NCBI GenBank assembly: GCA_018401435.1
Contig: JAGYJW010000007.1
Coordinates: 86,615 to 150,614 of the forward strand
Reading direction: 5' to 3'
From: Deltaproteobacteria bacterium
Lineage (GTDB): Bacteria > Myxococcota_A > UBA796 > UBA2385
DNA: 64,000 bases
Shown: piece by piece, positions 4,072-31,822 of the stretch
How positions within the stretch are numbered: position 1 is the stretch's first letter
Layout: every line of letters starts with the position of its first letter
Notes under the pieces: generated by a model
What the model was told of the DNA's origin: nothing
What the model saw: the letters and a program-made list of their open reading frames with translations, nothing else
Databases searched by the model: none
Position numbers and translations under genes: made by a program

Positions 4072-4863
4072 GTGTCCGACCGCAGCAGCCTCTCTGACAA
4101 GCACGCCCTCGTCTGCGGCGCCAGCGCCGGCATCGGCCGGGCGACCGCCCTGGCCCTGGCTGCCCAGGGCGCACGGGTCACCGTCCTGGCCCGGCGCGCC
4201 GATCGCCTGGAGGCCCTCATCCCCGCCCTCCTGGACGCGGGGGCGGCCAGCGCCCGGGCCCTCACCGCGGACCTCGATGATCGCGCCGACCTCGCCCAAC
4301 GCATCGAGAGCCTGCTGGCCCTGGCCGGCCCGGTGCACATCCTCATCAACAATGCCGGCGGCCCCCCCGGCGGCCCCTTGCTGCAGGCCACCGAAGAGGC
4401 CTTGCTGACCGCCTTGGGACGCCACCTGCTGGCCAGCCACCTGCTCGCCCAGAAGCTCGTCCCCGGCATGGTAGAGGCCGGCTGGGGCCGCATCGTCAAC
4501 ATCATCAGCACCTCGGTCTATGAGCCCATCGCGGGCCTGGGGGTGAGCAATACCACCCGCGGCGCCATGGCCTCCTGGGCCAAGTCCCTGGCCAACGAGC
4601 TGCCCCCGGGCGTCACCATCAACAATGTGCTGCCGGGCTTCACCGACACCGAGCGCCTGTCCTCCCTGGCCGAGGCCCGGGCGACCAGCGCCGGCAGCAC
4701 CGCCGACGCGATTCGTGCCGACTGGCTGGCGGGCGTCCCCGAGGGTCGCTTGATTCGCGCCGAAGAGACGGCCGCGGCCGTGGCCTTCCTCGTGTCTCCA
4801 GCAGCCGGTGCCATCCGCGGCGTGAGCCTGCAGGTGGACGGCGGCCGCATGCGCAGCATCTGA
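4072..4863 (+). CDS. SDR oxidoreductase of the type found with kynurenine/2-aminomuconate catabolic genes
   Basis: CGASAGIG, NNAGGPPGG, ISTSVYEPIAGLGVSNTTR (no classical YxxxK), NNVLPGFT, VDGGRMRSI. Confidence 0.8.
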   Translation: MSDRSSLSDKHALVCGASAGIGRATALALAAQGARVTVLARRADRLEALIPALLDAGAASARALTADLDDRADLAQRIESLLALAGPVHILINNAGGPPGGPLLQATEEALLTALGRHLLASHLLAQKLVPGMVEAGWGRIVNIISTSVYEPIAGLGVSNTTRGAMASWAKSLANELPPGVTINNVLPGFTDTERLSSLAEARATSAGSTADAIRADWLAGVPEGRLIRAEETAAAVAFLVSPAAGAIRGVSLQVDGGRMRSI

Positions 4864-4889
4864 CAGCAGCATCTCCCCCAGGGGGCCCC

Positions 4890-6128
4890 ATGGACTACGA
4901 CGTCTTCTTCTCCATCAGCCAGACGCCGGTGGACGGCCGCACCCCAAGCGAAGCGGAGATGTTCCGCAACTTCTTCGACCAGGTGAAGGCAGCGGACGCC
5001 CTGGGCTACGACACGGCCTGGGTGGCCCAGAGCCACCTGTCCACCCAGGTGCAGAAGGCCCACGACCACCCCGTCGTGCCCCACTGGCAGGGGGAGATCG
5101 GCCTCAACAACGACATCTATCAGCTGGCCCACAAGGTGTTCTCCTGCACCCGTCGCATCGAGGTGGGCAGCGCGGTCAGCAATATCGTCTGTGCGGGCGG
5201 GCCCATGGCCCACGCCGAGCGGGTGGCGGCATTCGCGTCTCTACATGGCATGGACCCGACCGAATTCCGGCGCCTGCGCATCGGCTTCTCTGCCGGTCGC
5301 TTCGAGTTCATGAACCGCGCCTATGGGGTGGTGCCGCGGGATGCCGTCGAGGCCGCCGCCTGGCCGGCCCTGCGGGGGCAGGTCTTTGCCGAGGCCTGTG
5401 AGCTCTTCTTGCGCCTGCTCCGGGGCGATGTGTTGGCCTCCTCCGACCTCATGCCCACGGTGCTCACCCGGGACCTCTTCCGATCGGATGCAGACTGGGA
5501 GAAGGTGACCCAGGCCGCCCGGCAGGCCGGGCGCTTGCAGGGCGACACCGTGCCCATTCCCAGCCGCTGGTCCTTTGATGTGTTGCAGGTCATCCCCAAG
5601 GACTGGCGCCGCGAGCTGGTGGACCTGGTGATCGGCAGCCACGACCCCGTCCTGCAAGAGCGGGTCAACCAGTGGATGCCCGTCAAGGTCTTCAACCTCA
5701 GCATCACCCAACCCAAGGTGATCGACGAGACGCACGCGCGCATGGCGCGGGCCTACCACCCCGATGGCGGCCCCTGGAAGCGCGCCCACATGCCGCGCAC
5801 CGTCATGGTCTTCCTCAATGACGAGGCCGGCCTGACCCCCGCCAGCCGCAGCGCAGCGGCCCAGGTCGAGGCCCAGGCGGCCCTGGGCGCCTACTGGACC
5901 GCGCTCGAGGGCACCCTGGACCCCAAGAAGGTCGAGCGCGCCGCCGACAACGCCGTCATCGGCAACGCCGACGAGGTGGCGGAACAGATCGCCGCGCGCT
6001 TCCACCCCGACGATGTGCTGATGCTCTGGTTCGACTTCTTCAACCACGACAGCGACCGGGTGATCCGCAATATGCGGGCATTCAAAGAGAAGGTTGAGCC
6101 TATCGTATCCGAGCGGGTGGGCCGATGA
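4890..6128 (+). CDS. Luciferase-like (LLM class) flavin-dependent monooxygenase
   Basis: QVKAADALGYDTAWVAQSH, TRRIEVGSAV, RLRIGFSAG and IGNADEVAEQI match the LLM fold pattern. ATGA overlap with the next gene. Confidence 0.8.
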   Translation: MDYDVFFSISQTPVDGRTPSEAEMFRNFFDQVKAADALGYDTAWVAQSHLSTQVQKAHDHPVVPHWQGEIGLNNDIYQLAHKVFSCTRRIEVGSAVSNIVCAGGPMAHAERVAAFASLHGMDPTEFRRLRIGFSAGRFEFMNRAYGVVPRDAVEAAAWPALRGQVFAEACELFLRLLRGDVLASSDLMPTVLTRDLFRSDADWEKVTQAARQAGRLQGDTVPIPSRWSFDVLQVIPKDWRRELVDLVIGSHDPVLQERVNQWMPVKVFNLSITQPKVIDETHARMARAYHPDGGPWKRAHMPRTVMVFLNDEAGLTPASRSAAAQVEAQAALGAYWTALEGTLDPKKVERAADNAVIGNADEVAEQIAARFHPDDVLMLWFDFFNHDSDRVIRNMRAFKEKVEPIVSERVGR

Positions 6129-7264
6129 GCGCGCGGGGCCCCACCGGCTGGACCGGTCCGGGTGGGCGCATCTTCCCCCGCAGCCCCCTGGGCGAGCAGG
6201 AGGCGGGCATTCCCACCGGGCGGGACGTGCCTTGGGAGCCCCTGGTGGACTACCGGCGCTCCGGCGTCAGCGAGACCACCATCCACGGGGCGGTGGCCTG
6301 GGCCCACGGCGGCGAGGTGGTGCACGCCTTTGGCGGCAATGTGCTCTGTTATGGCCGGTCGATGATGAAGCCCTTGATGATCAAGGTCTTCGTCGATCTG
6401 CTCGATGATCTCAGCTGGGAGCAGCGGGCGATCAGCGTGGCCAGCCACAATGGCACGCCCGAACATGTCGCCGCCGCCCAGAGCATCCTGATGCCCGATG
6501 AGTGGGGCCTGATGCAGACCCCCCTGGACGTGCCCCTGGTGCAATTCGGCCGTCAGGTACGCCGCCCGCGGCGCTGGTACCACTGCTGTTCTGGAGAGCA
6601 CGCCGCCATCCTCTTGGGTTGTCGCAGAAAGGGGTGGTCGCGGGCTGGTTATATGTTGCCCGGTCACCCTTTCTTTGCGGCCTGGATGGACGTGATGCGG
6701 CGGGACCTGGGTGCAGACTGGTCGCCCTTGCGCGTGGCCCGGGACGGCTGTGGCCTGCCCACGGTATCCAGTACGGTGAGCGAGCTTGCGGTGATCTTCA
6801 GCAAGCTCGCCCAGCGCAGAGACGAAGACTGGATCTGGGAGGCCATGACCCGAAACCCCGACCTGGTGGGCGGCTTCAACCGGCTGGACAGCACCATCCT
6901 CAAGGCGGGTGAGGGCCGGGTGCTGGCCAAGGAGGGGGCCGACGGCCTGTTGGGCCTGGCCATCGAGCACCCGGACTACCCCGAGGGCCTGGGGGTGGTC
7001 ATCAAGATTGCCCATGGCTGGAATGCCCAGGCAACCTGGTATATTGCCCGAGGCATCCTGGGCAGCCTGGGCTTCGAGCTGCGCAACCCCTACAAGCTGC
7101 ACCGGCAGAAGGCCTTCCTGGTGCCCGGCGTGGTGCCCGCCGATCGCCTGGCCGCCTTGGAGCAGACCCCCACCTGGGATGCCTGGGACCCCGACATCGA
7201 GCGCTACCAATATGACTGGCGGGCCTATGCGGGCCCGGGGGGCGGCGGGCGCGGCCCCAGCTGA
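6125..7264 (+). CDS. Class 3 (Rhizobium-type, Asparaginase_II) asparaginase-like amidohydrolase with a variant active site
   Basis: RSMMKP, ASHNG, HCCSGEH (canonical NCSGKH), DGCGLP and AKEGADG motifs. Confidence 0.8.
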   Translation: MSARGPTGWTGPGGRIFPRSPLGEQEAGIPTGRDVPWEPLVDYRRSGVSETTIHGAVAWAHGGEVVHAFGGNVLCYGRSMMKPLMIKVFVDLLDDLSWEQRAISVASHNGTPEHVAAAQSILMPDEWGLMQTPLDVPLVQFGRQVRRPRRWYHCCSGEHAAILLGCRRKGWSRAGYMLPGHPFFAAWMDVMRRDLGADWSPLRVARDGCGLPTVSSTVSELAVIFSKLAQRRDEDWIWEAMTRNPDLVGGFNRLDSTILKAGEGRVLAKEGADGLLGLAIEHPDYPEGLGVVIKIAHGWNAQATWYIARGILGSLGFELRNPYKLHRQKAFLVPGVVPADRLAALEQTPTWDAWDPDIERYQYDWRAYAGPGGGGRGPS

Positions 7265-7320
7265 GGGGCCACCTGCGGCAGCATCGCGGCAAGAGCTGGA
7301 GACGACCAAGCGGAGCCAGC

Positions 7321-7764
7321 ATGTCCATCCACGCGTGCTACCCCTATCTGCGCGTCTCGGACGCCCCTGCCGCCATCGCCTTCTATGCGCAGGTCTTTGG
7401 CGCCACGGAGCGCTTTCGCCTGGTGGACCCCAGCGACGGGCGCATCGGCCACGCGGAGCTTGTCTTGGCGCCAGGCATCGTGATCATGCTGTCGGCGGAG
7501 TACCCAGAGATGGGCATGGTCGGCCCCAGCGGCAAGCCCGGCCTGTCCATGCACCTGCATGTGGACGACTGCGACGCCGTCTTCGCGCGGGCCCGGGTCG
7601 CCGGCGCCACCATCCTGCGGCCCCCTGCGGACCCGGTCCACGGGGAACGCAGCGGCAGCTTCGTGGATCCCTTTGGCCACGAGTGGATGGTGGGCCACAG
7701 CATCGAAGAGGTGCCCGAAGAGGCGATGCAGGCCCGCTGGGACGCGCTGGTGAAGGGGGGCTGA
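7321..7764 (+). CDS. VOC/glyoxalase (PhnB-like) family protein
   Basis: PYLRVSDAPAAIAFYAQVFGA, GRIGHAEL and GERSGSFVDPFGHEW. Confidence 0.85.
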   Translation: MSIHACYPYLRVSDAPAAIAFYAQVFGATERFRLVDPSDGRIGHAELVLAPGIVIMLSAEYPEMGMVGPSGKPGLSMHLHVDDCDAVFARARVAGATILRPPADPVHGERSGSFVDPFGHEWMVGHSIEEVPEEAMQARWDALVKGG

Positions 7765-7846
7765 ACGCGCACCGGCGCATGCGGCTCTCGCGCCTCCCCA
7801 AAGCAGGCGGGCGACCGGCGAGGGCAGCGCCGCAAGGGGGGCGGCC

Positions 7847-8443
7847 CTACTCAGTCACCAGGAAGCCTCCGGCGAACCAGGCCCGGTGCGGCCCCTCCAG
7901 GATGAGGCTGTGCACGTCGATCACGTCGCCCGGCGGCAGGGCTCGGACCTGGGCTGGGGCGCTCTGCAGCTGGTCGCCATCCCGCAGCACCAGCATCTGT
8001 CCGTCCGACAGGGCGCCTGCCCGCACCCACTCCCCCGTCTCTGCATCGGCGAAGCGGTGGCTGGGGGTGCTGCTCACCGTCTCGGCACCCGCCTGGATTG
8101 TGATCAGCTCCTTGCCAAAGCTATCCCAACGGAAGGCCACCCGCGCGGGCAGCTGCTGGCCGCTGCTGCGATCCACCGCCCAGACGGTGTCTCCGGTGCC
8201 CAGGTGGTTGATGGGCACATCGCCCTTGGGCGTGGCCACCAGCGTCTCGCCGGGAAAGCAGCGGGGCGGCTGCGGGCTGCCCTCCAGCGCGTCGAGGCTG
8301 AAGGCCAGGGCGCCGGTCGCGCTCTGGGCGGCCATGGCGGCGGCGAGATGGCCCCAGGTGGACCCGGCCGAGGAGGGCGTCCTCGCTGGCGGAGCGGGGT
8401 GGGCGCAGGACAGGCTCAGGAGCAGGATCGGGATCAGGCGCAT
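7847..8443 (-). CDS. Putative lipoprotein with a C-terminal Hint (intein-like/BIL) domain
   Basis: MRLIPILLLSLSC lipobox, CFPGETLVAT (block A), STPSHRF (block B TxxH), WVRAGAL; ends WFAGGFLVTE-stop. Confidence 0.75.
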   Translation of the reverse strand: MRLIPILLLSLSCAHPAPPARTPSSAGSTWGHLAAAMAAQSATGALAFSLDALEGSPQPPRCFPGETLVATPKGDVPINHLGTGDTVWAVDRSSGQQLPARVAFRWDSFGKELITIQAGAETVSSTPSHRFADAETGEWVRAGALSDGQMLVLRDGDQLQSAPAQVRALPPGDVIDVHSLILEGPHRAWFAGGFLVTE

Positions 8444-8519
8444 GAGGCCCTCTACCGGGCCAAGCGGGCGGTGGCCGGTCCGCTGCGGCGTTAGCGGAGC
8501 CCACGGCCCCGGAGCACCC

Positions 8520-9989
8520 ATGGCGAGGCGCGATCCCCGGGACCCTGAACTTCATCGGCAGGCGCTTCAGCCCCGCCGCCGGCGACGCGCCTGGCTGGAG
8601 AACCTCAACCCGGCCACGGGCCGGCTGATCTCGCGCATCGCCCGGTCGGGCTCCGAAGACGTCGATCGGGCCTGCGCGGCAGCTGCGTCGGCCCGCAAGC
8701 CCTGGGGCGACACCCCCGTCCTGGAGCGCGCCCGCCTGCTCGACGCCATCGCCGAGGGCATCCAGGCCCGCTTCGACGAGTTCGCCCGCACCGAGAGCGA
8801 AGACCAGGGCAAGCCGGTCAGCCTCGCCCGCAGCATCGACATCCCCCGGGCCATCGCCAACTTCCGCTTCTTTGCCGGCGCGGTGCGCCATGACGAGACG
8901 GGATGCCACGAGATGCACGGCCAGGGCGGGACCGGGGCCCTGAACTACAGCCTGCGGCGGCCGGTGGGGGTGGCCGCGCTGATCACGCCCTGGAACCTGC
9001 CCTTGTACCTGTTGACCTGGAAGGTGGCCCCGGCCCTGGCCTGTGGCAACCCGGTGGTCTGCAAACCCAGCGAGCTGACCCCGCGCACGGCCACCCTGCT
9101 GGCCGAGGTCATCGACGAGGTGGGCCTGCCCGATGGCGCCTTCAACCTGGTGCATGGGTTGGGTCCCGAGGTGGGCGCCCCGCTCACGGCGCATCCCCAG
9201 GTGGCCCTGGTGTCCTTCACCGGGGGCACGGCCACGGGCGAGCGGGTGGCGGCGGCGGCGGCGCCGGGCTTCAAGAAGCTCAGCCTGGAGCTGGGCGGCA
9301 AGAACGCGACCCTGGTCTTTGCCGACTGCGACTTCGATCAGGCGGTGGAAGGCGCGGCCCGGGCGGCTTTTGCCAACCAGGGCGAGATCTGCCTGTGCGG
9401 CAGCCGCATCCTGGTGGAGCGGTCCATCCACGACCGCTTCGTGGATGCGCTGGTGGCGCGGGTCTCGGCCTTGCGGGTGGGGGATCCCGCCTCCCCGGAC
9501 ACCGATATGGGCGCGCTGGTGAGCGCAGCGCACCGCGACAAGGTGGAGGGCTACCTGCGCCTGGCGGTGGAAGAAGGCGGCCGCCTGCGCTGCGGGGGCC
9601 AGCGGCCGTCCCTGAATCCGCCCCTGGACGGTGGCTTCTTCTTGCAGCCCGCCGTGATCACCGATCTGGCGCCCAGCTGCCGCACCGCCACCGAAGAGAT
9701 ATTTGGGCCCGTGGTGACGGTGCACCCCTTCGACACCGAAGCCGAGGCGTTGAATGCGGCGAATGGGGTGCGCTACGGCCTCTCTGCATCCTTGTGGACC
9801 ACCGATCTGCGCCGGGCCCACCGCCTTTCGGCCGCCCTCGACACGGGCATGGTCTGGGTCAATACCTGGCTGCTGCGGGATCTTCGCGTGCCTTTCGGCG
9901 GGGTGAAGGACAGCGGGGTGGGGCGAGAAGGAGGCAGGTTCTCCCTGGATTTCTACAGCGATATGAAGAATGTCTGCATTCAGCTCTGA
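8520..9989 (+). CDS. amnC: Aldehyde dehydrogenase, 2-aminomuconate 6-semialdehyde dehydrogenase (AmnC/ALDH8-like)
   Basis: ITPWNLPLYLLTWK, FTGGT, LELGGKN, NQGEICLCGSR, EEIFGP and WLLRDLRVPFGG, typical of the HMSD/AMSDH subfamily. The first ~25 codons probably carry two compensating indels (LNFIG reads in another frame). Confidence 0.8.
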   Translation: MARRDPRDPELHRQALQPRRRRRAWLENLNPATGRLISRIARSGSEDVDRACAAAASARKPWGDTPVLERARLLDAIAEGIQARFDEFARTESEDQGKPVSLARSIDIPRAIANFRFFAGAVRHDETGCHEMHGQGGTGALNYSLRRPVGVAALITPWNLPLYLLTWKVAPALACGNPVVCKPSELTPRTATLLAEVIDEVGLPDGAFNLVHGLGPEVGAPLTAHPQVALVSFTGGTATGERVAAAAAPGFKKLSLELGGKNATLVFADCDFDQAVEGAARAAFANQGEICLCGSRILVERSIHDRFVDALVARVSALRVGDPASPDTDMGALVSAAHRDKVEGYLRLAVEEGGRLRCGGQRPSLNPPLDGGFFLQPAVITDLAPSCRTATEEIFGPVVTVHPFDTEAEALNAANGVRYGLSASLWTTDLRRAHRLSAALDTGMVWVNTWLLRDLRVPFGGVKDSGVGREGGRFSLDFYSDMKNVCIQL

Positions 9990-10429
9990 CCCCCCGCTCC
10001 AAAGCGCAGGATGGCGGCGCGCAAGGGACCGTCGATGGGCTGGCTCTTGAGGTGTTCGGGGCTGCCGGGCAGGGTGCCCATCTGCACGACGCGGCTGTGG
10101 CCGCTGGCCCGCAGATCGCCGTCCGGGCCCACCACCCGGTAGTCCAGGCGCAGGCTGCTGCGCCCCAGCGCCCCCACCTGCAGCTCGACGGTGACCCGCT
10201 CGCCAAAGGCGCAGGGCCGCTGGTAGTCGCACTCGGCATGCACGGCGGGAAAGCCGCGTGTCTTCAACAACTCGGCATAGGGCAGGCCCAGGGCCTCATC
10301 GAACCAGCTCTCCATGGCCTGGTGAAACCAGTCGAAGTATCGGGGGAAGTAGGCGATGCCGACGGGGTCGCAGGCGCCGAAGCGCACGTCGATGGGGTGA
10401 CGGTGCAGGCCCGGCGTGGGGGTGGTCAT
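9980..10429 (-). CDS. Acyl-CoA thioesterase, 4HBT/hotdog family
   Basis: VRFGACDPVGIAYFPRYFDWF and AECDYQRP. Confidence 0.85.
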   Translation of the reverse strand: MTTPTPGLHRHPIDVRFGACDPVGIAYFPRYFDWFHQAMESWFDEALGLPYAELLKTRGFPAVHAECDYQRPCAFGERVTVELQVGALGRSSLRLDYRVVGPDGDLRASGHSRVVQMGTLPGSPEHLKSQPIDGPLRAAILRFGAGGQS

Positions 10430-12867
10430 GGGGCGTCCTCATCCAGGATGCACAGCTCGCGCAGATCTTCGAGGAAGGAGCTGGGGCGCTGCGCCCGGTT
10501 GCTGCGGTCGCGGCCCGCCCAGGACAGGTCCAAGGCGCGGCGGGCGCGGGTGATGGCGACATAGAGCACGCGGCGCTCTTCATCGAGCTTGGCGGTGCTT
10601 CCGTCTTGGGTTGCGAACCAAGAGGGCAGGCCCCCCTCGGTGAGGCCGGGCACCCAGACGGCATCGAATTCCAGCCCTTTGGATTGGTGCATGGTGAGCA
10701 CCCGGACCCCTGCGGCCTCGTCCAGCTGGTCCACATCGCGGACCAGGGCGGCGCGGTCCAGGGCCCGGGACAAGGCCGCGGCGGCGGGCAGATCGGGGTC
10801 GTCCAGCTGGGTCATGCGGGCCACCAGCTCGGCGAGGTTGTCCAGGCGCCAGGGCTCCTTGGGGTATTTGTGCTTCAAGGCCTCTTCGGTGATGCGGGCG
10901 ATGAGCTGGGCGGGCCGCAGGTCCTCGGCGGCCCAGCGGTCCAGGGTCTGGCGCAGGCGGGCGAAGAGGGGGGCCTCGCGCAGCACCAGGGCCCGGCGCT
11001 CGGCCGCATGCCGGGCGGCGAGGGGGGCCAGGCGGGCGGCCAACGAGGCGGTGGCCAACACATCGTCCAGGGCCCGGTGGGTGGGTTGAAAGGGGATCTG
11101 GAGGTGGGAGACCAGGTGTTCGAGGGTGTAGCGTTCGGTGCGGATCAGCCGTCTCGCCACATCCAGGCTGTCCCAGGCCACGGAGAGGTGCAGGGCCACG
11201 CCGTGCTTGCGGCCGGCGGCCTCCAACATGGCCACGTCAAAGCGCACATTGTGACCGGCGATGGGCGTCTGGCCGATGAAGCGCTTGAGTTCACCCAGCA
11301 CGTCGGCGGGGTGGCGGCCCTCCACATCCAGGCGCTCCTGGCTGATGCCGTGTACGGCCTCGCTGTCGCCCAGGGGCAACGTATTCTTGAGCAGGGCGGC
11401 CATGCGGTCATGGCTTGCAGCAGAGATGCGTCCGCCGCGCAGGCGCTGGGCGGCGACCTCGATCACCTCGTCCCGGCCGGCCTGGATGCCGGTGGTCTCG
11501 GTGTCCAGCACCACCACGTCGGGGGTGCCCAGGCCCCACAGGGGGTCGCCTTCGTCCACGGCGCGTTGGTTCAAGAGGTCGGCGAGGCGCAGCCCGCAGG
11601 TCGCGGCCTCGTCCAGGATGCGCCGCACGGTGCGTTCGCCCACGCCGCGCACCAGGCGCCGGGCCACCCGGCGGGCGGCCTGCTCGTCTCCCCGGTCATA
11701 GACCAGGCGGGCCAGGGCCAGGGCGTCCTTGATCTCGGCCCGGCGGTAGAAGCGGAACTGTTCGACGGTGGTGGCGGGCACGCCCTGGTCCGCGAAAGCC
11801 TGCCCCACATCGCCCACCTGCTGGTTGGTGCGCACCAGCACGGCGAGCTGTCGCGCGTCGGCCCCGGCGGCCAGGCGCGCCCCCATGGCACGGGCGATGG
11901 CGGCGTGCTCTTCGGCCTCTGTGGCGTAGGCGTGCAGAGTCGGGCGCTCCCCCTGGTCCGCACCTTCGGGAGCCAACACATGGCTCACCCGATTCGACAG
12001 GCCATCGGCGAGGCGATCCGCGACGTCCAGAAGGGCGCGGGTGGCCCGGAAGTTTGCGGTCAGCTCCAGCTTGTGTACCGGCCCGAAGTCGCGGTCCAGG
12101 CGGGCGAGCAGCGTCTGGGGGGCCGAGCCCCGCCAGCCATAGATGGTCTGGTCGAGATCCCCCACCAGGCAGAAGCTGCGCGCGTTGGCGGCCAGCACGC
12201 TCAGCACCTCGTATTCGGAGAGGTGGGTGTCTTGCACCTCGTCCACCAGCACCGAAGAGAAGCGGTCGCCCCATAGGGCCCGGCAGTCGGCGTCCCGCAG
12301 CAGCAGGGCGCGGGTGAGGAGCACCAGGCCGGCAAAGTCCACGGCCCCGCGCTCGCCCAGGGCCTCGACGTAGATGCGGGCGTCGCCTCGCGGGGAGAAG
12401 GCGCCGGTGGCCCACAGCTCGACCGAGGCCTCGCCCAGGGGCACCGCGGAGGCGTCGGCGTGGATGGCATAGAGGGCCTTGCGGGGCTGCTCCATGCCCA
12501 GCTCGCGCATCAGCTCCTCGGCGTCGTCTTCGTCCAGGATGCGGAAGTCGGTGGGCAGGCCCGCGCGCTCGGCGTGTTGGCGCAGAATGCGGTTGCAGAG
12601 GGAGTGGAAGGTGCTCAGCGTCACCTGGCTGGCCACCCGCGCGCCCACGGCCTTGGCCAGGGCCTCGCGCATGTGGTCGGCCGCCCGGTTGGTGAAGGTC
12701 AAGGCCAGCAGCTCGTGGGGCTTGACGCCGTCTTGCAGGGCGCGGGCCACCCGATGCGACAGCGTGGTGGTCTTGCCCGACCCGACGGCGGCCAGCACCA
12801 GCAGGGTGCCGTGCTGGGCCTCGATCACAGCCTGCTGTTCGAGCGTGGGGCAGAAGGGCGCGGTCAT
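10426..12867 (-). CDS. UvrD/Rep/PcrA-family helicase with an inserted DEDDh (DnaQ-like) 3'-5' exonuclease
   Basis: GSGKTT, LTFTNRAA, VDEVQD, VGDLDQTIYGWRG, TMHQSKGLEF, YVAITRAR. The insert carries LDTETTG, HGIS, GHNVRFD and HRALDD. Confidence 0.9.
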   Translation of the reverse strand: MTAPFCPTLEQQAVIEAQHGTLLVLAAVGSGKTTTLSHRVARALQDGVKPHELLALTFTNRAADHMREALAKAVGARVASQVTLSTFHSLCNRILRQHAERAGLPTDFRILDEDDAEELMRELGMEQPRKALYAIHADASAVPLGEASVELWATGAFSPRGDARIYVEALGERGAVDFAGLVLLTRALLLRDADCRALWGDRFSSVLVDEVQDTHLSEYEVLSVLAANARSFCLVGDLDQTIYGWRGSAPQTLLARLDRDFGPVHKLELTANFRATRALLDVADRLADGLSNRVSHVLAPEGADQGERPTLHAYATEAEEHAAIARAMGARLAAGADARQLAVLVRTNQQVGDVGQAFADQGVPATTVEQFRFYRRAEIKDALALARLVYDRGDEQAARRVARRLVRGVGERTVRRILDEAATCGLRLADLLNQRAVDEGDPLWGLGTPDVVVLDTETTGIQAGRDEVIEVAAQRLRGGRISAASHDRMAALLKNTLPLGDSEAVHGISQERLDVEGRHPADVLGELKRFIGQTPIAGHNVRFDVAMLEAAGRKHGVALHLSVAWDSLDVARRLIRTERYTLEHLVSHLQIPFQPTHRALDDVLATASLAARLAPLAARHAAERRALVLREAPLFARLRQTLDRWAAEDLRPAQLIARITEEALKHKYPKEPWRLDNLAELVARMTQLDDPDLPAAAALSRALDRAALVRDVDQLDEAAGVRVLTMHQSKGLEFDAVWVPGLTEGGLPSWFATQDGSTAKLDEERRVLYVAITRARRALDLSWAGRDRSNRAQRPSSFLEDLRELCILDEDAP

Positions 12868-23365: not shown

Positions 23366-23448
23366 CCCTGGGGGCGGCGGTCGGTCCGTCGGAAGGCCAC
23401 TGTCAGCGCCAGGCGCCACGTTATGGGGCCTCCTTCCGCGGAGGCCCC

Positions 23449-24360
23449 ATGTCCCTGCCCGCCGGCTCTGGCCGCATCGTCGCGGGGGTGCTCGCGCCCC
23501 ACCCGCCCCACCTCGTCTATGCCGAGAACCCGCCCCAGAACGAGCCTCGGGCCGAGTGCGGCTGGGAGGAGCTGCGATGGGGCTACGAGCGCCTGCGCCG
23601 CAGCCTCGCCCGCACCGACCATGACGTGTTGATCGTGCATTCGCCCCACTGGAAGACCCGGCAGGGCCACCACGTGCTGGCGCGGCCGGCCTTCTCCAGC
23701 CTCAGCGTGGACCCGGTCTTCCCAAACCTCTTCCGCTACCACTACGATCTGCGCGTGGACGTCGATCTGGCGCATCTTATCATTGAGGAGGGCCGGGGCG
23801 AGGGCCTGGTGATGAAGGCCATGGAGAACCCCGACTTCCGGGTGGACTATGGCACCATCACCTCCTGCCACCTGGTGAACCCCAGCTGGGACCGCCCCAT
23901 CGTGGGCATCTCCAGCAACCGCGCCTACTACGACTTCAGCAACGAGGTGGGCGACGAGATGATGCTGGCCCTGGGCCGGGCCACGCGGCGTGCGGTGGAG
24001 CGCTCGGGCAAGCGGGCGGTGCTGCTGGCCAGCAACTCCCTGTCGCATCGGCACTTTACTGAAGAGTCGGCCATCCCCGAAGACATGACCCACGAGCACA
24101 TCTACCACCATGGGCAATACCTCTGGGATATGCACGCCCTCAAGCTGATGCGGGAGGGCCGCACCCGGCAGCTGGTGGACGAGATGCCCGACTTCATCGA
24201 GCAGGCCGTCTCGGAATGCAAGGAGGGCAGCCTCACCTGGTTGATGGGGGCCCTGGACTTCCCCGACTATCCGGCCGAGGTGCACGCCTATGGAACGGTC
24301 ATCGGGACGGGCAACGCCGTCGTCGAGTGGGACCCGCGCCGGGCCGGAGGTGCCGCATGA
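23449..24360 (+). CDS. amnB: 2-aminophenol 1,6-dioxygenase beta (catalytic) subunit
   Basis: LAPHPPHLVYAENPPQNEPR, HSPHW, SVDPVFPNLFRY, FRVDYGT, LLASNSLSH and YGTVIGTGNAV closely match AmnB/CnbCb. GGAGG RBS before ATG 23449. Confidence 0.9.
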   Translation: MSLPAGSGRIVAGVLAPHPPHLVYAENPPQNEPRAECGWEELRWGYERLRRSLARTDHDVLIVHSPHWKTRQGHHVLARPAFSSLSVDPVFPNLFRYHYDLRVDVDLAHLIIEEGRGEGLVMKAMENPDFRVDYGTITSCHLVNPSWDRPIVGISSNRAYYDFSNEVGDEMMLALGRATRRAVERSGKRAVLLASNSLSHRHFTEESAIPEDMTHEHIYHHGQYLWDMHALKLMREGRTRQLVDEMPDFIEQAVSECKEGSLTWLMGALDFPDYPAEVHAYGTVIGTGNAVVEWDPRRAGGAA

Positions 24361-25769
24361 GCCCCGCCTGGACCGATGCGGATCTGGTGATGGGCCTGGT
24401 GGTGCCCGGCATGCCCCAGCCCCTGCTGGCCCCCGACGGAAACCCCGCCTGGGCGGCCTTGCGGGGGGCCTATGAGGCTGCGGCGGCGCGCATCGCCGCC
24501 AGCGAGGCCGACCTGCTGGTGCTCTACAGCACGGGCTGGCCCAGCGTGATCGGCCACCAGATCCAGGCCATGCCTCGGCCCCGCTGGGTGCATGTGGACC
24601 CCGAGTGGCACGACCTGGGGCCGATCCCCTACGACTTCGCCATCGACGCGGCCTTTGCTGGGGCCTGGCGCGACGCGGCCGAGTCCCGCGGCCTGCACGC
24701 CCGCACGGTGGCCTATGAGGGCTTTCCCATCGATACCGGCTCGATCGTCGCCTTGAAGCTGCTCAATCCGCAGAATCGCATCCCGGCGGTCATCGTGTCC
24801 TGCAATATATACGCGGACCGCGCCGAGACGCTGGTGCTGGGAAAGGCCGCCCGGGACGCGGTGGCCGCGGGCGGGCGCAAGGTGGTGGCTGTCGCGGTGA
24901 CCCAGCTCACCGACCGCGTGCACACCCGCCCGGTGGCCGATGCCGACGACCACCTGTCCTCTCTGCAAGATGACGAGTGGAACCGCAAGCTGCTGGAGAT
25001 CCTGGGGGAGGGGCGCCTGGAGGATGTCAGCCAGCTGGCGCGCACCTTCACGCACCAGGCCCACGCCGACAGCCGCCTGAAGGCGATCTGGTGGCTGGGC
25101 GCCCTGATGGGCCAGCACAACCGCTACCGGGGCGAGGTGCTGGCCTATGGCCCGGTGCAGGGCACCGGCTGCGCGGTGGTGGCGCTGACGCCGTCGGCGG
25201 TGGAGGCCGCAGGTCACGAATTCGACGAGGAGGATGTGGAGAGCTTCGCCGGCGACCGCAGCGTGCTGGGCGCCGAGGTCGAAGCAGCCGGGGCTCCACC
25301 CCCGCCGGCCGTCCCCCCGCCGGTGGCCCCGGCCCGGCCCCGCAGCGGGGCGGTCTCCACCGACGCTGCTCCTTCGCCGGTGGGGGCCTACCCCCATGCC
25401 CGGCGGGTGGGGGATCTGCTCTACCTGTCTGGGGTGGGGCCGCGTCAGCCGGTGACCAATGCCATCCCCGGCGGGCCCATCCGCGACGCCAGCGGCGCCC
25501 CCCTGGACTATGACATCGAAGCCCAGACGCGGGCGGTCATCGACAATGTGCGCGTGATCCTCGAAGCCGCGGGCTCCTCTCTGGACCGGGTGCTGGACAT
25601 CACGGCCTTCCTGGTGGATATGGACCGGGACTTTGCCGGCTACAACAAGGTCTACGCCGAGGCATTCGCGTCGGTGGGGGCCACGCGCACCACCCTGGCC
25701 GTGCGCGCCTTGCCCACCCCCATCGCGGTGGAGTTCAAGGTCATCGCCGCCGCAGGGGAGGGCCCTTGA
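24357..25769 (+). CDS. amnA: 2-aminophenol 1,6-dioxygenase alpha subunit fused to a RidA-family (2-aminomuconate deaminase-like) domain
   Basis: N-terminal VPG.P.P, YSTGW, VHVDPEW, YEGFPIDTG, DDEWNR, YGPVQGTG (AmnA). Acidic/Pro linker. C-terminal PVGAYPHARRVGDLLYLSG...RTT...LPTPIAVEFKVIA (RidA). Confidence 0.85.
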   Translation: MSPAWTDADLVMGLVVPGMPQPLLAPDGNPAWAALRGAYEAAAARIAASEADLLVLYSTGWPSVIGHQIQAMPRPRWVHVDPEWHDLGPIPYDFAIDAAFAGAWRDAAESRGLHARTVAYEGFPIDTGSIVALKLLNPQNRIPAVIVSCNIYADRAETLVLGKAARDAVAAGGRKVVAVAVTQLTDRVHTRPVADADDHLSSLQDDEWNRKLLEILGEGRLEDVSQLARTFTHQAHADSRLKAIWWLGALMGQHNRYRGEVLAYGPVQGTGCAVVALTPSAVEAAGHEFDEEDVESFAGDRSVLGAEVEAAGAPPPPAVPPPVAPARPRSGAVSTDAAPSPVGAYPHARRVGDLLYLSGVGPRQPVTNAIPGGPIRDASGAPLDYDIEAQTRAVIDNVRVILEAAGSSLDRVLDITAFLVDMDRDFAGYNKVYAEAFASVGATRTTLAVRALPTPIAVEFKVIAAAGEGP

Positions 25770-26416
25770 CCCATGGTATATCGCCCGGAATATTGATCGA
25801 TATTTCGCCGGTATTGTCGCCGCGCATCGCGGTCTGGCCCGGGGATACTGCTTTCTCGCAGCGCTACCTCTGCCGGATGGACCAGGGCGCCAACCTCGAC
25901 CTGTCCACCATCGAGAGCACGGTGCACCTGGGCGCCCACGCCGATGCCCCCTCCCACTACCGGGCGGGGGCCCCGGGCATCGCCGCGCGGTCCCTGGACC
26001 TCTACTATGGGGACTGCGAGGTCATCCTGGTCGAGGTGCCCCGCGGCGGACGCGTGATGCCCGCGCACCTGCCGGGGCCGGTCTCGGCCCCCCGGGTGCT
26101 GCTGCGCACCGGCAGCTACCCCGACCCCGACCGCTTCAACACCGACTTTGTGGCCCTCTCGCCCGAGCTGATCCGCCACCTGGCGGCCCAGGGGGTCTGC
26201 CTGGTGGGCATCGACACCCCCAGCATCGACCCCTTCTCCAGCAAGGCCCTGGAGTCCCACCAGGCGGTGGCAGAGGCCGACATGGCGATCCTGGAGGGCC
26301 TGGTGCTGGACCTTGTGGCGCCAGGGGCCTACACCCTCATCGCCTTGCCCCTCAAGATCGAGGGGGCGGACGCCAGCCCGGTGCGGGCGGCCTTGCTGCC
26401 ACGGGGACGGTCATGA
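25766..26416 (+). CDS. kynB: Kynurenine formamidase (cyclase family)
   Basis: DISP, VWPGDT, HLGAHADAPSH metal motif, RVLLRT, GIDTPSID, ILEGL, ADASPVRA. TTG start overlaps the upstream TGA. Confidence 0.85.
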   Translation: MTHGISPGILIDISPVLSPRIAVWPGDTAFSQRYLCRMDQGANLDLSTIESTVHLGAHADAPSHYRAGAPGIAARSLDLYYGDCEVILVEVPRGGRVMPAHLPGPVSAPRVLLRTGSYPDPDRFNTDFVALSPELIRHLAAQGVCLVGIDTPSIDPFSSKALESHQAVAEADMAILEGLVLDLVAPGAYTLIALPLKIEGADASPVRAALLPRGRS

Positions 26417-28343: not shown

Positions 28344-28368
28344 GGGCTCTCCAGACGAGGGGCTCAGT

Positions 28369-30606: not shown

Positions 30607-30688
30607 GACGGGACCTCCACAGCGGCCTGGGCCCTAATGCGAAGCGCGCGCGCTGTCCCCCGTCTCAGGCAACAACGCTCCCCCCCCT

Positions 30689-31822
30689 TCAGGGCGTGGC
30701 GAAGCGGTAGAAGGCCTCGTTTCGGGCCGGGGGCACCCGGTCCTTGGGCAGCAGCAGGGTGCGCACGGTCCACAGATCCGTGAAGATCCGGGCGTGGGTG
30801 GTGCGGTCCAGGTATTCGACCCCCGACGAGCCGCCGGTGCCCACCCGCCGGCCGATGATGCGCTCCACCATGCGGGCGTGGCGGTTGCGCCAGAGCACCA
30901 GCTGTTCCTCCAGCTCGACCACGGTGTCCACGAGCAGGCGCGGCCAGGCCAGCAAGGGCAGCTGACGGTGGCTCTCGATATAGAGCAGTCCGGCGCGGGC
31001 CCGGCGGGCGGTGGGGCGCATGGCCTCGCCCACATCCTCGGCGCCAAGGAAGGCGCGGGCGCCGGCGGTGGCGGCTGCGAACTTTTCACGAATGGCGTCT
31101 GGGGGCGCGATCCCGGCAGAGGCGAGGCGCTCGGCCTGCTCCTCCTGCCAGCCTTCGAGGGCGCGGAGGTAGCCCGTGACGAAGGTGGCCACGACGGCCT
31201 CGTCGCCGGCATCGCCGGGGGAGGAGCCATCGATGGGGGTGCGAGACAGCCAGTCGCGCACCACCCGCCGCAGGGTGCCGCCCTCGTCCGCCGCGGCGCT
31301 GGCCGCCAAGACGCGGCCCCAGGCGCTGGCCCCGCCGGGGCTGTTCTTGGCCAGCTCGCGGATATGGGCCAGGGCGTCGGTCTGGCCATAGGTCTCCCGC
31401 TGGCTGGCCCGCAGGCCCAGCAGGATCTCCAATTCGCGCATCTGGTGGCTTTGAAAGCCGCTGGCGGGGGCCAGCTTGTCCCGGAAGCCCAGGAAGTCCT
31501 GTGGAGTGAGGGTCTCCATCACCTCGAACTGGGCGACGGCGTGGCGCAGGATCGTGCTGACTCGCCGCAGGTGATGAACCGCGTGGGGGACCGTCTCTTC
31601 GGGCACCCGGGCGGTACGGAAGGCCCCGATGGCCTCGCGCAGCTCCCGCAGCACCATCTTGAACCACAGCTCATAGGTCTGGTGGATGATGATGAAGAGC
31701 AGCTCGTCCGCCACCAGCGCCTCTTCGCCGCCGTCGACGCCGCCTTGCAGCGACAGCAGGGACTCGAGCTGAAGGTAGTCCCAGTAGTTGGGCAGGGGGG
31801 CGGTGGAGGTCGGGTCGGACAT
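30689..31822 (-). CDS. kynA: Tryptophan 2,3-dioxygenase
   Basis: YWDYLQL, ELLFIIIHQTYELWFK, FRDKLAPASGFQS, WRNRHARMVERIIG and GTGGSSGVEYL. Confidence 0.93.
   Translation of the reverse strand: MSDPTSTAPLPNYWDYLQLESLLSLQGGVDGGEEALVADELLFIIIHQTYELWFKMVLRELREAIGAFRTARVPEETVPHAVHHLRRVSTILRHAVAQFEVMETLTPQDFLGFRDKLAPASGFQSHQMRELEILLGLRASQRETYGQTDALAHIRELAKNSPGGASAWGRVLAASAAADEGGTLRRVVRDWLSRTPIDGSSPGDAGDEAVVATFVTGYLRALEGWQEEQAERLASAGIAPPDAIREKFAAATAGARAFLGAEDVGEAMRPTARRARAGLLYIESHRQLPLLAWPRLLVDTVVELEEQLVLWRNRHARMVERIIGRRVGTGGSSGVEYLDRTTHARIFTDLWTVRTLLLPKDRVPPARNEAFYRFATP

What the first reader, a model, noticed from the sequence alone, without database searches (positions are those of the whole stretch)
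4072..31822. Candidate new tryptophan catabolic route: kynurenine to aspartate plus 2-aminophenol, bypassing kynureninase
Seen: kynA (30689-31822); amnB, amnA-ridA and kynB in one overlapping operon (23449-26416); an AmnC-like ALDH (8520-9989); and an SDR, LLM and asparaginase-like operon (4072-7264). KynU, KMO, 3-HAO and ACMSD are absent from the window. Known: TDO and KynB make kynurenine. AmnAB, AmnC and AmnD degrade 2-aminophenol, and were described in nitrobenzene/aminophenol degraders. Some LLM-family enzymes are type II Baeyer-Villiger monooxygenases. Inference: kynurenine is an aryl ketone, so Baeyer-Villiger oxidation with aryl migration would give the beta-aspartyl ester of 2-aminophenol. 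This can rearrange to N4-(2-hydroxyphenyl)-asparagine, a plausible substrate for an asparaginase-fold enzyme releasing L-aspartate and 2-aminophenol. The two unexplained enzymes would therefore fill the gap between the two known half-pathways. I know of no described pathway like this.
Basis: partly seen in the sequence, partly recalled or inferred. Interest (0 to 1): 0.92.

Follow-up and report, generated by a model that had tools for sequence, protein, structure and literature searches.

The report
Kynureninase-free tryptophan breakdown gene cluster
Eight genes that lie scattered in this window form one tight operon in many bacteria and marine archaea that lack kynureninase, which points to an undescribed way of breaking down tryptophan, probably via aspartate and 2-aminophenol.

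Summary
In 80 loci fetched with the LLM alone, SDR, LLM, class-3 asparaginase, ALDH, AmnB, AmnA-RidA, KynB and often TDO form one co-directional operon. All of SDR..KynB are present in 19 of 37 loci with enough flank. Record titles name Myxococcota, Planctomycetota, Latescibacterota, Bdellovibrionales, Thermoanaerobaculia and Poseidoniales/Thermoplasmata.

In 201 genomes of the window's phylum:
- The LLM is in 28 genomes; 27 of them have the asparaginase, 27 have AmnB and 26 have TDO.
- None of the 28 has kynureninase (42 other genomes do) or 3-HAO (33 others do).
- The window's own genome shows no kynureninase, 3-HAO or KMO-like gene.

AmnB, the ALDH and the RidA domain each match solved 2-aminophenol-pathway enzymes best. 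The asparaginase keeps its catalytic residues and the arginine that holds the substrate's alpha-carboxylate.

The genomic link is therefore shown. The chemistry (Baeyer-Villiger oxidation of kynurenine, then hydrolysis to Asp + 2-aminophenol) is inferred, at about 0.55. The role of the SDR, which lacks the catalytic Tyr, is open. Nine literature searches found no description of this route.

The parts
4072..4863 (+). Atypical short-chain dehydrogenase/reductase (263 aa). NAD(P)-binding motif present; the classical YxxxK is replaced by S159-N160-x-x-R163. Role open: flavin reductase for the LLM, or reductase of a downstream enone.
   Evidence: adh_short 128 bits. N160 and R163 are invariant in 39 orthologues. 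Aligned against two classical SDRs of the window. Same motif in the unannotated structures 5VA8/5IDX/5VPS. Lies directly upstream of the LLM in 52 of 71 loci with >1 kb upstream.
4890..6128 (+). Divergent luciferase-like (LLM) flavin-dependent monooxygenase, 412 aa. Proposed kynurenine Baeyer-Villiger monooxygenase (inferred).
   Evidence: PF00296 45.3 bits. No solved sequence relative better than E = 0.006. AF2 model pLDDT 89.9. Foldseek best hits are LLM TIM barrels with TMq about 0.6; 3,6-diketocamphane monooxygenase ranks 50. 4297 homologues, the top 120 at 66-100% identity. No CofD, so no F420 in the genome.
6125..7264 (+). Class-3 (Rhizobium etli type) asparaginase-fold serine hydrolase, 379 aa. 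Proposed beta-aspartyl-(2-aminophenol) ester/anilide hydrolase releasing L-aspartate (inferred).
   Evidence: PF06089 163.6 bits. ReAIV/ReAV 56-63 bits. Foldseek top hits are all ReAV/ReAIV. R78, S79, K82 and S107 are invariant in 59 of 59 orthologues and K269 in 58 of 59. Zn-ligand positions are C155/E158/C209 in 51 of 59 and S/Q/D in 8 of 59. Residue roles come from passages of PMC8602277 and PMC12292245.
8520..9989 (+). 2-aminomuconate-6-semialdehyde dehydrogenase-like ALDH (AmnC-like).
   Evidence: Aldedh 551 bits. TIGR03216 631 bits. Best solved relatives are 2-aminomuconate 6-semialdehyde dehydrogenases 4NPI/4I1W, 547 bits. Directly follows the asparaginase in 45 of 49 loci that hold both.
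23449..24360 (+). 2-aminophenol 1,6-dioxygenase beta (catalytic) subunit, AmnB.
   Evidence: 382.7 bits over residues 8-300 to 3VSG_B, and 372 bits to 8IHG_A. The His/His/Glu aligned with His13, His62 and Glu251 of 3VSG_B are conserved in the printed alignment; that these are the iron ligands is recalled. RBS and ATG.
24357..25769 (+). AmnA (non-catalytic LigB-type alpha subunit) fused to a RidA-family domain (2-aminomuconate deaminase-like). The frame is open from 24216; the likely start is 24357.
   Evidence: 7TXY_A 177 bits and 3VSG_A 160 bits for residues 19-286. The RidA part is best matched by 6IZH, 2-aminomuconate deaminase, 99.7 bits (numbering from start 24327). Start site. The fusion is seen in 27 of 36 loci.
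25766..26416 (+). Kynurenine (aryl)formamidase, KynB.
   Evidence: PF04199 55.7 bits. TIGR03035 203.6 bits against a cut-off of 223. Follows AmnA directly in 21 of 26 loci that hold both.
30689..31822 (-). Tryptophan 2,3-dioxygenase, long form (377 aa).
   Evidence: PF03301 192.6 bits, profile positions 16-346. TIGR03036 172 bits, below the 390 cut-off. Sits directly upstream of the SDR in 11 of 16 loci that hold both. Present in 26 of 28 LLM genomes.

Best explanation
These eight genes encode a kynureninase-independent pathway for tryptophan catabolism. In this window they lie in three pieces; elsewhere they form one operon, usually TDO-SDR-LLM-asparaginase-ALDH-AmnB-AmnA/RidA-KynB.

Steps supported by close homology:
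- TDO and KynB turn tryptophan into kynurenine.
- AmnAB opens the ring of a 2-aminophenol.
- The ALDH oxidises 2-aminomuconate semialdehyde.
- The RidA domain deaminates 2-aminomuconate.

Inferred middle steps:
- The FMN-dependent LLM inserts an oxygen between the aryl ring and the C4 carbonyl of kynurenine (or N-formylkynurenine). This is a Baeyer-Villiger reaction with aryl migration, and it gives the beta-aspartyl ester of 2-aminophenol, which may shift to the anilide.
- The class-3 asparaginase-fold serine hydrolase holds the aspartyl part by its alpha-carboxylate and releases L-aspartate and 2-aminophenol.

The tryptophan side chain would thus leave as aspartate rather than alanine. The Tyr-less SDR, the LLM's most constant neighbour, may supply FMNH2 or reduce the enone made by RidA towards 2-oxoadipate. 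Neither role is shown.
For: Synteny. Loci were fetched with the LLM alone.
- Of 80 loci, 64 hold the SDR, 60 the asparaginase, 53 the ALDH, 39 AmnB, 36 AmnA, 26 KynB and 18 TDO; many loci are cut short.
- Of the 37 loci with at least 3 kb upstream and 7 kb downstream, 19 hold all of SDR..KynB within 7.4-14.6 kb, and 33 are fully co-directional.
- No other gene family recurs in more than 6 loci.

Breadth. Record titles include Myxococcota, Planctomycetota, Latescibacterota, Bdellovibrionales, Thermoanaerobaculia, Poseidoniales and Thermoplasmata.

Phyletic pattern in 201 genomes of the phylum.
- LLM in 28, asparaginase in 28 (27 shared), AmnB in 30 (27 shared), TDO in 26 of the 28 LLM genomes.
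- Kynureninase in 42 and 3-HAO in 33, none of them an LLM genome.
- Kynureninase in 0 of 5 cluster genomes from other phyla.
- Where the locus lacks them, AmnB is elsewhere in 4 of 5 genomes and TDO in 5 of 5.

Own genome. No kynureninase, 3-HAO or full-length PF01494 enzyme.

Enzymes.
- AmnB scores 382.7 bits to solved 2-amino(chloro)phenol 1,6-dioxygenase.
- The ALDH scores 547 bits to AMSDH.
- The RidA domain is best matched by 2-aminomuconate deaminase.
- The asparaginase keeps the nucleophile Ser, both Ser-Lys tandems and the Arg that binds the alpha-carboxylate of L-Asn in ReAV.
- The genome has no CofD, so the LLM should use FMN and not F420.
- Two PF01613 flavin reductases lie elsewhere in the genome.

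From established knowledge (recalled): LLM-family type II BVMOs exist (diketocamphane monooxygenases), and an aryl-ketone BVMO followed by an esterase is the route for 4-hydroxyacetophenone.
Against: - No biochemical data exist for any of the three middle enzymes.
- The LLM is no nearer to the known type II BVMO (Foldseek rank 50) than to luciferases, SsuD, RutA or F420 enzymes, so the reaction type rests on pathway logic alone.
- One Zn ligand of class-3 asparaginases (Lys138) is Glu or Gln here, and 8 of 59 orthologues lack all three ligands.
- The SDR has no assigned step.
In G172, AmnB and TDO lie 22-29 kb from the LLM on the same contig.
- The lower meta-cleavage genes were not found in the window's genome: 4-oxalocrotonate decarboxylase gave nothing, and the HOA aldolase model gave 108 bits against a cut-off of 286. 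The fate of the ring carbon is unexplained.
- The genomes in the phylum sample are related, so the mutual exclusion is in effect a pattern across about 7 LLM families against at least 9 kynureninase families.
- Most genomes are MAGs.
Confidence: 0.55

Rival explanations
1. Hydroxylation-first route. The LLM hydroxylates kynurenine at C3, standing in for the missing KMO. AmnAB then opens the ring of 3-hydroxykynurenine, itself an o-aminophenol. The asparaginase-fold enzyme cleaves the resulting vinylogous amide or beta-dicarbonyl at the old C4 carbonyl. The products are aspartate and 2-aminomuconate semialdehyde, which feeds the ALDH.
For: It explains the same gene set and the same absence of KynU, 3-HAO and KMO. 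It also yields aspartate and converges on the AMSDH-like ALDH. It needs no free 2-aminophenol, which is toxic.
Against: AmnB is a close full-length relative of enzymes that act on small 2-aminophenols (382.7 bits); a much bulkier substrate would be expected to show more divergence. Aromatic hydroxylation is not a known LLM reaction, and C-C hydrolysis is not known for the class-3 asparaginase fold (both statements recalled, not tested).
Confidence: 0.12
2. The operon is a tryptophan/kynurenine pathway, but SDR, LLM and asparaginase carry out different chemistry that has not been guessed. Examples are action on N-formylkynurenine, or on products downstream of 2-aminomuconate. In that case 2-aminophenol, or another AmnAB substrate, arises in another way.
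For: The LLM reaction type cannot be read from sequence or fold. The SDR is atypical and unassigned. The lower pathway is missing from the genome, so extra steps are needed somewhere. SDR-LLM persists in 2 genomes without the orthologous asparaginase.
Against: No other enzyme recurs in the cluster that could make an o-aminophenol from kynurenine. The asparaginase keeps the residues that hold an aspartyl/asparaginyl substrate. The LLM and the asparaginase are adjacent in 52 of 70 loci.
Confidence: 0.2
3. The cluster makes a product (a secondary metabolite, a pigment such as a phenoxazinone, or an NAD precursor) rather than degrading tryptophan.
For: 2-aminophenols dimerise to phenoxazinones (recalled). 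TDO and KynB also serve biosynthetic clusters in actinomycetes (recalled).
Against: The ring-opening dioxygenase, the semialdehyde dehydrogenase and the deaminase are catabolic enzymes with high similarity to characterised ones. No synthetase, tailoring or export gene recurs in the cluster. The distribution includes streamlined marine archaea.
Confidence: 0.06
4. Two unrelated modules (SDR-LLM-asparaginase, and AmnAB/ALDH with TDO/KynB) merely travel together.
For: In this window they are 13-17 kb apart. In some genomes they lie on different contigs.
Against: They are contiguous and co-directional across several bacterial phyla and archaea. They co-occur genome-wide even when unlinked. In the phylum sample the PF06089 subfamily was found (E <= 1e-20) in 28 genomes, 27 of which carry the LLM.
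Confidence: 0.04

Closest known systems
Classical bacterial kynurenine pathways (TDO, KynB, KynU with or without KMO, 3-HAO, ACMSD, AMSDH, 2-aminomuconate deaminase)
   Same: The first two steps (TDO, KynB) and the last two cluster-encoded steps are the same. The ALDH scores 547 bits to AMSDH, and the RidA domain is best matched by 2-aminomuconate deaminase.
   Different: No kynureninase, 3-HAO or KMO was found in the window's genome. None of the 28 LLM genomes holds kynureninase or 3-HAO. A LigB-type AmnAB stands where the cupin 3-HAO would be. Three extra enzymes (SDR, LLM, class-3 asparaginase) fill the middle. The side chain is predicted to leave as aspartate, not alanine.
2-aminophenol meta-cleavage pathway of nitrobenzene/aminophenol degraders (amnBACD..., cnbC)
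   Same: AmnB, AmnA, AmnC-like and AmnD-like proteins with high similarity to the solved enzymes.
   Different: Here the module sits in a tryptophan operon of uncultured marine and soil lineages, not in pollutant degraders. AmnA is fused to the deaminase in 27 of 36 loci. The lower genes (decarboxylase, aldolase) were not found in this genome.
4-hydroxyacetophenone route: aryl-ketone Baeyer-Villiger monooxygenase followed by an esterase (recalled, not looked up)
   Same: The same proposed logic: an aryl ketone becomes an aryl ester, which is hydrolysed to a phenol and an acid.
   Different: That BVMO is a single-component FAD/NADPH enzyme, and its esterase belongs to another fold. Here the candidates are a two-component-type LLM and a class-3 asparaginase, and the substrate is an amino acid.
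Type II (LLM-family) BVMOs: 2,5- and 3,6-diketocamphane monooxygenases; bacterial luciferase
   Same: The same TIM-barrel LLM fold and presumably FMN dependence (no F420 pathway).
   Different: Only remote similarity: TMq 0.56 and 14% identity to 5AEC, at rank 50. No sequence-level match was found in the PDB.
Class-3 L-asparaginases ReAIV/ReAV of Rhizobium etli
   Same: The fold. Also Ser48-Lys51, Ser80-Lys263, Arg47, His139 and Asp187 equivalents, plus two Cys ligands.
   Different: About 22-26% identity. The Lys138 zinc ligand is Glu (51 of 59) or Gln (8 of 59). The 8 orthologues with Gln also have Ser and Asp at the two Cys positions. The gene context is tryptophan catabolism, not asparagine use.

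Membership tests
2-aminophenol 1,6-dioxygenase (AmnAB/CnbC) | Two adjacent LigB-type subunits, a catalytic beta and a non-catalytic alpha | tested here: met
   23449-24360 and 24357-25769 both match PF02900. They match the beta and alpha chains of 3VSG, 8IHG and 7TXY respectively.
2-aminophenol 1,6-dioxygenase (AmnAB/CnbC) | His/His/Glu iron ligands in the beta subunit (identity of the ligands recalled: His13, His62, Glu251 of CnbCb) | tested here: met
   All three positions are identical in the printed alignment to 3VSG_B. That these residues are the ligands comes from memory, not from a call.
2-aminophenol 1,6-dioxygenase (AmnAB/CnbC) | Turnover of 2-aminophenol | not testable with these tools
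   Needs an enzyme assay.
Class-3 (R. etli type) L-asparaginase, PF06089 | Two Ser-Lys tandems and the neighbouring Arg (Ser48-Lys51, Ser80-Lys263, Arg47 in ReAV) | tested here: met
   R78, S79, K82 and S107 are invariant in 59 of 59 orthologues and K269 in 58 of 59. Residue roles from PMC8602277 and PMC12292245.
Class-3 (R. etli type) L-asparaginase, PF06089 | Zn site Cys135-Lys138-Cys189 | tested here: not met
   The Lys position is Glu in 51 and Gln in 8 of 59. Both Cys are kept in 51 of 59 and replaced by Ser/Asp in 8. It is therefore a member of the fold family but not a typical ReAV-type enzyme.
Class-3 (R. etli type) L-asparaginase, PF06089 | Hydrolysis of free L-asparagine | not testable with these tools
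   Needs an assay. The context argues for a different beta-aspartyl substrate.
Luciferase-like monooxygenase (PF00296) | TIM-barrel LLM fold and a Pfam match over the gathering score | tested here: met
   45.3 bits against 27.9. The AF2 model (pLDDT 89.9) matches LLM structures with probability 1.00.
Type II Baeyer-Villiger monooxygenase (LLM subgroup) | Specific relatedness to the diketocamphane monooxygenases, or demonstrated BV activity | tested here: inconclusive
   5AEC ranks only 50th and is no closer than non-BVMO LLMs. No sequence signature is known to me.
Classical SDR | Catalytic Tyr-x-x-x-Lys | tested here: not met
   Replaced by S159-N160-x-x-R163. N160 and R163 are invariant in 39 orthologues. 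The fold and cofactor motif are kept.
Tryptophan 2,3-dioxygenase | Pfam and NCBIfam model scores | tested here: met
   PF03301 192.6 bits against 34.9. The equivalog model TIGR03036 gives 172 bits, below its 390 cut-off, so this is a divergent long form.
Kynurenine formamidase KynB | TIGR03035 equivalog score | tested here: inconclusive
   203.6 bits, just under the 223.05 cut-off. PF04199 is met.
2-aminomuconate-6-semialdehyde dehydrogenase | Closest characterised relatives | tested here: met
   The top seven solved matches are all AMSDH/AmnC, at 498-547 bits; the next family scores 403. TIGR03216 gives 631 bits against 693.

The most novel reading that the evidence does not exclude
A widespread, undescribed 'aspartate-forming' branch of the kynurenine pathway replaces kynureninase in at least several bacterial phyla and in the abundant marine group II archaea. 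It would contain three new enzyme activities. The first is an LLM-family Baeyer-Villiger monooxygenase acting on an amino acid (kynurenine). The second is a class-3 asparaginase-fold hydrolase specific for beta-aspartyl 2-aminophenol. The third is possibly a Tyr-less SDR serving as the flavin reductase. It would also give the 2-aminophenol meta-cleavage genes, known so far from pollutant degraders, a natural substrate and a likely evolutionary origin.
Probability: 0.5. Interest if true: 0.9.

Novelty: new variant of a known kind. Interest (0 to 1): 0.85.

Why it matters
Tryptophan breakdown after kynurenine is textbook metabolism, and every described route passes through kynureninase. These data show a conserved gene set that stands in for kynureninase and 3-HAO. 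In the window's phylum the two solutions never occur together.

They include marine group II archaea, which are among the most abundant planktonic archaea (abstract of PMC6461757, seen in the listing).

If the proposed chemistry is right, it has four consequences:
- It adds a new reaction to amino-acid catabolism.
- It changes how carbon and nitrogen flow from tryptophan is modelled in these uncultured groups: aspartate instead of alanine, and no anthranilate.
- It assigns functions to three large families now annotated only generically.
- It explains where the 2-aminophenol degradation genes of nitroaromatic degraders came from.

The hypothesis can be tested directly with four or five recombinant proteins.

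Tried and rejected
I replaced it with a search restricted to ORFs around the cluster that do not overlap known hits. That found no further conserved family; the largest occurs in 6 loci.
- Complex prediction for LLM + SDR gave no verdict. It is neither for nor against binding.
- Foldseek on the LLM model and the protein Atlas gave only generic LLM relatives and no functional lead.
- The AF2 model of the asparaginase (pLDDT 74.9) and its fold search only confirmed the class-3 asparaginase fold. I could not examine pocket geometry with these tools.

Literature.
- None returned a paper linking kynurenine with Baeyer-Villiger chemistry in bacteria, with an LLM, with an asparaginase, or with 2-aminophenol formation.
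- None returned a paper on an SDR flavin reductase paired with an LLM.
- Subscription journals are not covered by these searches.
- Supplementary files were not consulted.
- PMC10470539 (2-aminophenol microcompartment in Actinobacteria) has no occurrence of kynurenine or tryptophan.
- The ASPDH preprint (10.64898/2026.06.05.730449; passages only) concerns eukaryotic steps after 2-aminomuconate, not this route.

Readings rejected.
- F420-dependent reductase for the LLM: no CofD in the genome.
- AmnAB acting on 3-hydroxyanthranilate made by KynU/KMO: neither gene was found.
- SDR as an ordinary ketoreductase: it has no catalytic Tyr.

Not done: an ACMSD search; a tree of AmnB to test the direction of recruitment; an expression check in public RNA runs; a pocket comparison of AmnB.

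Full report
**Observation.** The window has about 70% G+C. I called genes by third-position G+C and scanned them against Pfam and NCBIfam.
- SDR, 4072-4863.
- A divergent luciferase-like monooxygenase (LLM), 4890-6128. PF00296 gives 45.3 bits, over the N-terminal half only.
- An Asparaginase_II (PF06089) protein, 6125-7264. Its start overlaps the LLM stop.
- An ALDH, 8520-9989.
- A LigB-type beta subunit, 23449-24360, with its own GGAGG and ATG.
- A LigB-type alpha subunit fused to a RidA domain, ending at 25769. The likely start is ATG 24357, overlapping the amnB stop.
- KynB, 25766-26416.
- TDO on the minus strand, 30689-31822.

In this window the set lies in three pieces. A glyoxalase-family ORF and a Hint-domain ORF separate the asparaginase from the ALDH. 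About 13 kb of unrelated genes (UvrD-like helicase, MatE, peptidase M19 and others) separate the ALDH from amnB.

I fetched loci from one genome per species using the LLM protein alone. I then ran tblastn with 31 window proteins against these loci.
- Hits: SDR in 64 of 80 loci, asparaginase 60, ALDH 53, AmnB 39, AmnA 36, KynB 26, TDO 18. Many loci are short contigs.
- Among the 37 loci with at least 3 kb upstream and 7 kb downstream of the LLM: SDR 33, asparaginase 31, ALDH 30, AmnB 27, AmnA 25, KynB 20, TDO 10.
- Of those 37, 19 carry all of SDR..KynB within 7.4-14.6 kb, and 6 of the 19 also carry TDO. In 33 of the 37, all members present are co-directional.
- Adjacency: SDR directly upstream of the LLM in 52 of 71 loci with room; asparaginase directly downstream in 52 of 70; asparaginase to ALDH 45 of 49; ALDH to AmnB 23 of 38; AmnB to AmnA 33 of 36; AmnA to KynB 21 of 26; TDO to SDR 11 of 16.
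- A typical order is TDO-SDR-LLM-asparaginase-ALDH-AmnB-AmnA-KynB, as in L034, L068, L048 and L079.
- A search for any other recurring ORF family in and around the clusters found none in more than 6 loci. The conserved unit is therefore these eight genes, and it includes no dedicated flavin reductase.
- Record titles place the loci in Myxococcota/'Deltaproteobacteria', Planctomycetota, Latescibacterota (a complete MAG chromosome), Bdellovibrionales, Thermoanaerobaculia/Holophagales, Eisenbacteria, and archaea of the Poseidoniales/Thalassarchaeaceae/Thermoplasmata. Some automatic labels in these titles look unreliable.

**Phyletic pattern.** I ran six searches over the same 201 genomes of the window's phylum.
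- The LLM (E <= 1e-60) is in 28 genomes.
- The asparaginase subfamily (E <= 1e-20) is in 28, and 27 are shared with the LLM set. The exceptions are G172 (LLM only) and G167 (asparaginase only).
- AmnB is in 30. It is in 27 of the 28 LLM genomes; the miss is G112, whose asparaginase hit is only partial (residues 11-108). AmnB is also in G167, G187 and G051.
- TDO is in 90, including 26 of the 28 LLM genomes (not G097 and G164).
- Kynureninase (TIGR01814, E <= 1e-30) is in 42 genomes, 36 of them over the curated cut-off. 3-HAO is in 33. Neither is in any of the 28 LLM genomes.
- At the family level, the LLM occurs in families f1, f2, f3, f5, f7, f39 and f44. Kynureninase occurs in f11, f12, f16, f18, f31, f36, f38, f41 and f45. 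The two lists do not overlap. These genomes are related, so this is a pattern over roughly 16 families, not over 201 independent trials.
- By my reading of the coordinates, the asparaginase lies within 7 kb of the LLM on the same contig in 24 of the 27 genomes with both. AmnB lies within 25 kb of the LLM in 20 of the 27 with both.

Outside the phylum sample:
- Five cluster-bearing genomes (the genomes of L052, L014, L055, L073 and L075) have no kynureninase match.
- Five genomes whose LLM locus lacks AmnAB nearby have AmnB elsewhere in 4 of 5. The miss is a 1.2-Mb MAG. All 5 have TDO.
- Of five genomes whose locus lacks the asparaginase, three have the orthologue elsewhere (69-71% identity). 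Two have only a 34-35% identical paralogue.

In the window's own genome (94.9% complete, 6.25% contamination):
- Kynureninase and 3-HAO gave nothing.
- The best PF01494 match is 40.5 bits over half the model, so no KMO-like enzyme is seen.

**What the individual proteins say.**
- AmnB matches the beta chains of solved 2-amino-5-chlorophenol and 2-aminophenol 1,6-dioxygenases over its whole length (382.7 and 372 bits). The His, His and Glu aligned with His13, His62 and Glu251 of 3VSG_B are conserved; that these are the iron ligands is from memory.
- AmnA matches the alpha chains (177 bits). Its C-terminal domain is matched best by 2-aminomuconate deaminase 6IZH (99.7 bits), ahead of generic RidA proteins.
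- The top seven solved matches of the ALDH are all 2-aminomuconate-6-semialdehyde dehydrogenases (498-547 bits); the next family scores 403. The 2-aminophenol module is thus assigned by close homology.
- The asparaginase-like protein is a distant class-3 asparaginase: 56-63 bits by sequence, with only ReAV/ReAIV at the top by fold.
- In 59 orthologues, the equivalents of ReAV Arg47, Ser48, Lys51 and Ser80 are invariant, and the Lys263 equivalent is kept in 58 of 59.
- In ReAV, Ser48 is the nucleophile and all four tandem residues are essential (passages of PMC8602277). Arg47 holds the alpha-carboxylate of bound L-Asn (passages of PMC12292245).
- The zinc site differs. The Lys ligand is Glu in 51 orthologues and Gln in 8, and those 8 also lack both Cys.
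- This is what one expects of an active serine hydrolase that still grips an aspartyl-type substrate but has a changed leaving-group side.
- The LLM has no solved sequence relative (E = 0.006 at best). Its confident AF2 model (pLDDT 89.9) is about equally far (TMq 0.5-0.63) from luciferases, RslO1, SsuD, RutA, F420 enzymes and the type II BVMO 3,6-diketocamphane monooxygenase, which ranks 50. The Atlas returns only unnamed LLM clusters.
- The genome has no CofD, so FMN is the likely cofactor. Two PF01613 flavin reductases lie elsewhere in the genome.
- The SDR keeps the nucleotide-binding motif but has S-N-x-x-R where classical SDRs have Y-x-x-x-K. N160 and R163 are invariant in 39 orthologues. 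The same motif occurs in three Burkholderia structural-genomics entries of unknown function.

**Mechanism.**
Shown by homology:
- Tryptophan to N-formylkynurenine to kynurenine (TDO, KynB).
- An o-aminophenol to 2-aminomuconate semialdehyde, then to 2-aminomuconate, then to 2-oxohex-3-enedioate (AmnAB, ALDH, RidA).

Shown by comparative genomics:
- These steps, plus SDR, LLM and the asparaginase, are one unit that occurs instead of kynureninase and 3-HAO.

Inferred:
- How kynurenine becomes an o-aminophenol.
- An asparaginase-fold enzyme makes aspartate from a beta-aspartyl-X compound.
- Kynurenine is asparagine with an aryl group in place of the amide nitrogen.
- A flavin monooxygenase of a family that includes Baeyer-Villiger enzymes can insert an oxygen between the aryl ring and the carbonyl. 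X-H is then 2-aminophenol, the very substrate of the enzymes to which AmnB is closest.
- The BVMO-then-esterase logic is known for 4-hydroxyacetophenone (recalled).
- I put this reading at about 0.55.

The main rival keeps aspartate as the product but reverses the order: the LLM hydroxylates C3, AmnAB opens 3-hydroxykynurenine, and the hydrolase cuts the resulting vinylogous amide. I put it at about 0.12, because AmnB is so close to small-substrate enzymes and because neither activity has a precedent that I know of.

**Open points.**
- The SDR has no step. Its tight pairing with the LLM, its missing acid-base Tyr and the lack of a cluster reductase suggest an NAD(P)H:FMN reductase.
- Alternatively, the absence of 4-oxalocrotonate decarboxylase, and of an HOA aldolase above cut-off, in this genome suggests a reductase leading to 2-oxoadipate.
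- The complex prediction gave no verdict (listed under tried and rejected).

**Novelty.** Nine full-text searches found no description of this route or of these enzyme functions. Subscription-only papers and supplementary files were not covered. The enzymes belong to known superfamilies, and the two ends of the pathway are known. I therefore class it as a new variant of the kynurenine pathway, not a categorically new system, but one of high interest.

**Verdict.** Interest 0.85.

Noticed in passing
window 21757-24360 (+): The GAF-GGDEF (diguanylate cyclase) ORF runs in the same frame into amnB with no stop codon before 24360, although amnB has its own GGAGG and ATG at 23449. This is either a GGDEF-AmnB fusion or a lost stop. 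In other genomes AmnB sits in open frames of about 300-360 aa.
   Followed up: partly
L032:9734-10450, and L062, L077, L078: The archaeal (marine group II/Thermoplasmatota) clusters show no KynB hit but carry a conserved 238-aa Formyl_trans_N-family ORF. It may be an alternative way of removing the formyl group of N-formylkynurenine.
   Followed up: partly
window 4072-4863: The cluster SDR belongs to a subfamily without the catalytic Tyr-x-x-x-Lys (S-N-x-x-R instead). The subfamily also includes three solved but functionally unannotated Burkholderia proteins, 5VA8, 5IDX and 5VPS.
   Followed up: partly
window 7321-8521: A glyoxalase/VOC-family ORF (7321-7764, +) and a Hint-domain ORF (7847-8521, -) lie between the asparaginase and the ALDH. 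These two genes are directly adjacent in 45 of 49 other loci, so this looks like a local insertion.
   Followed up: no
window 10426-12867 (-): A UvrD-type helicase with an RNase_T exonuclease domain inserted in its C-terminal half. The same gene sits between the ALDH and amnB in the closest relatives (L002, L003, L005, L012).
   Followed up: no
G000:C18:2661-3101: A second contig of the same assembly is 100% identical to the last 147 codons of the asparaginase-like gene. It is probably a duplicated contig end, in line with the 6.25% contamination estimate.
   Followed up: no
phylum sample: TDO comes in forms that track the pathway. Most LLM genomes (and some with neither pathway) give one full-length match to PF03301, the long form. 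Most kynureninase genomes give two split matches, the short bacterial form.
   Followed up: no
window 48000-54000: A stretch with lower G+C (0.65-0.68) and negative GC skew. Its ORFs have third-position G+C of 0.94-0.95 and low first-position G+C, unlike the rest of the window.
   Followed up: no
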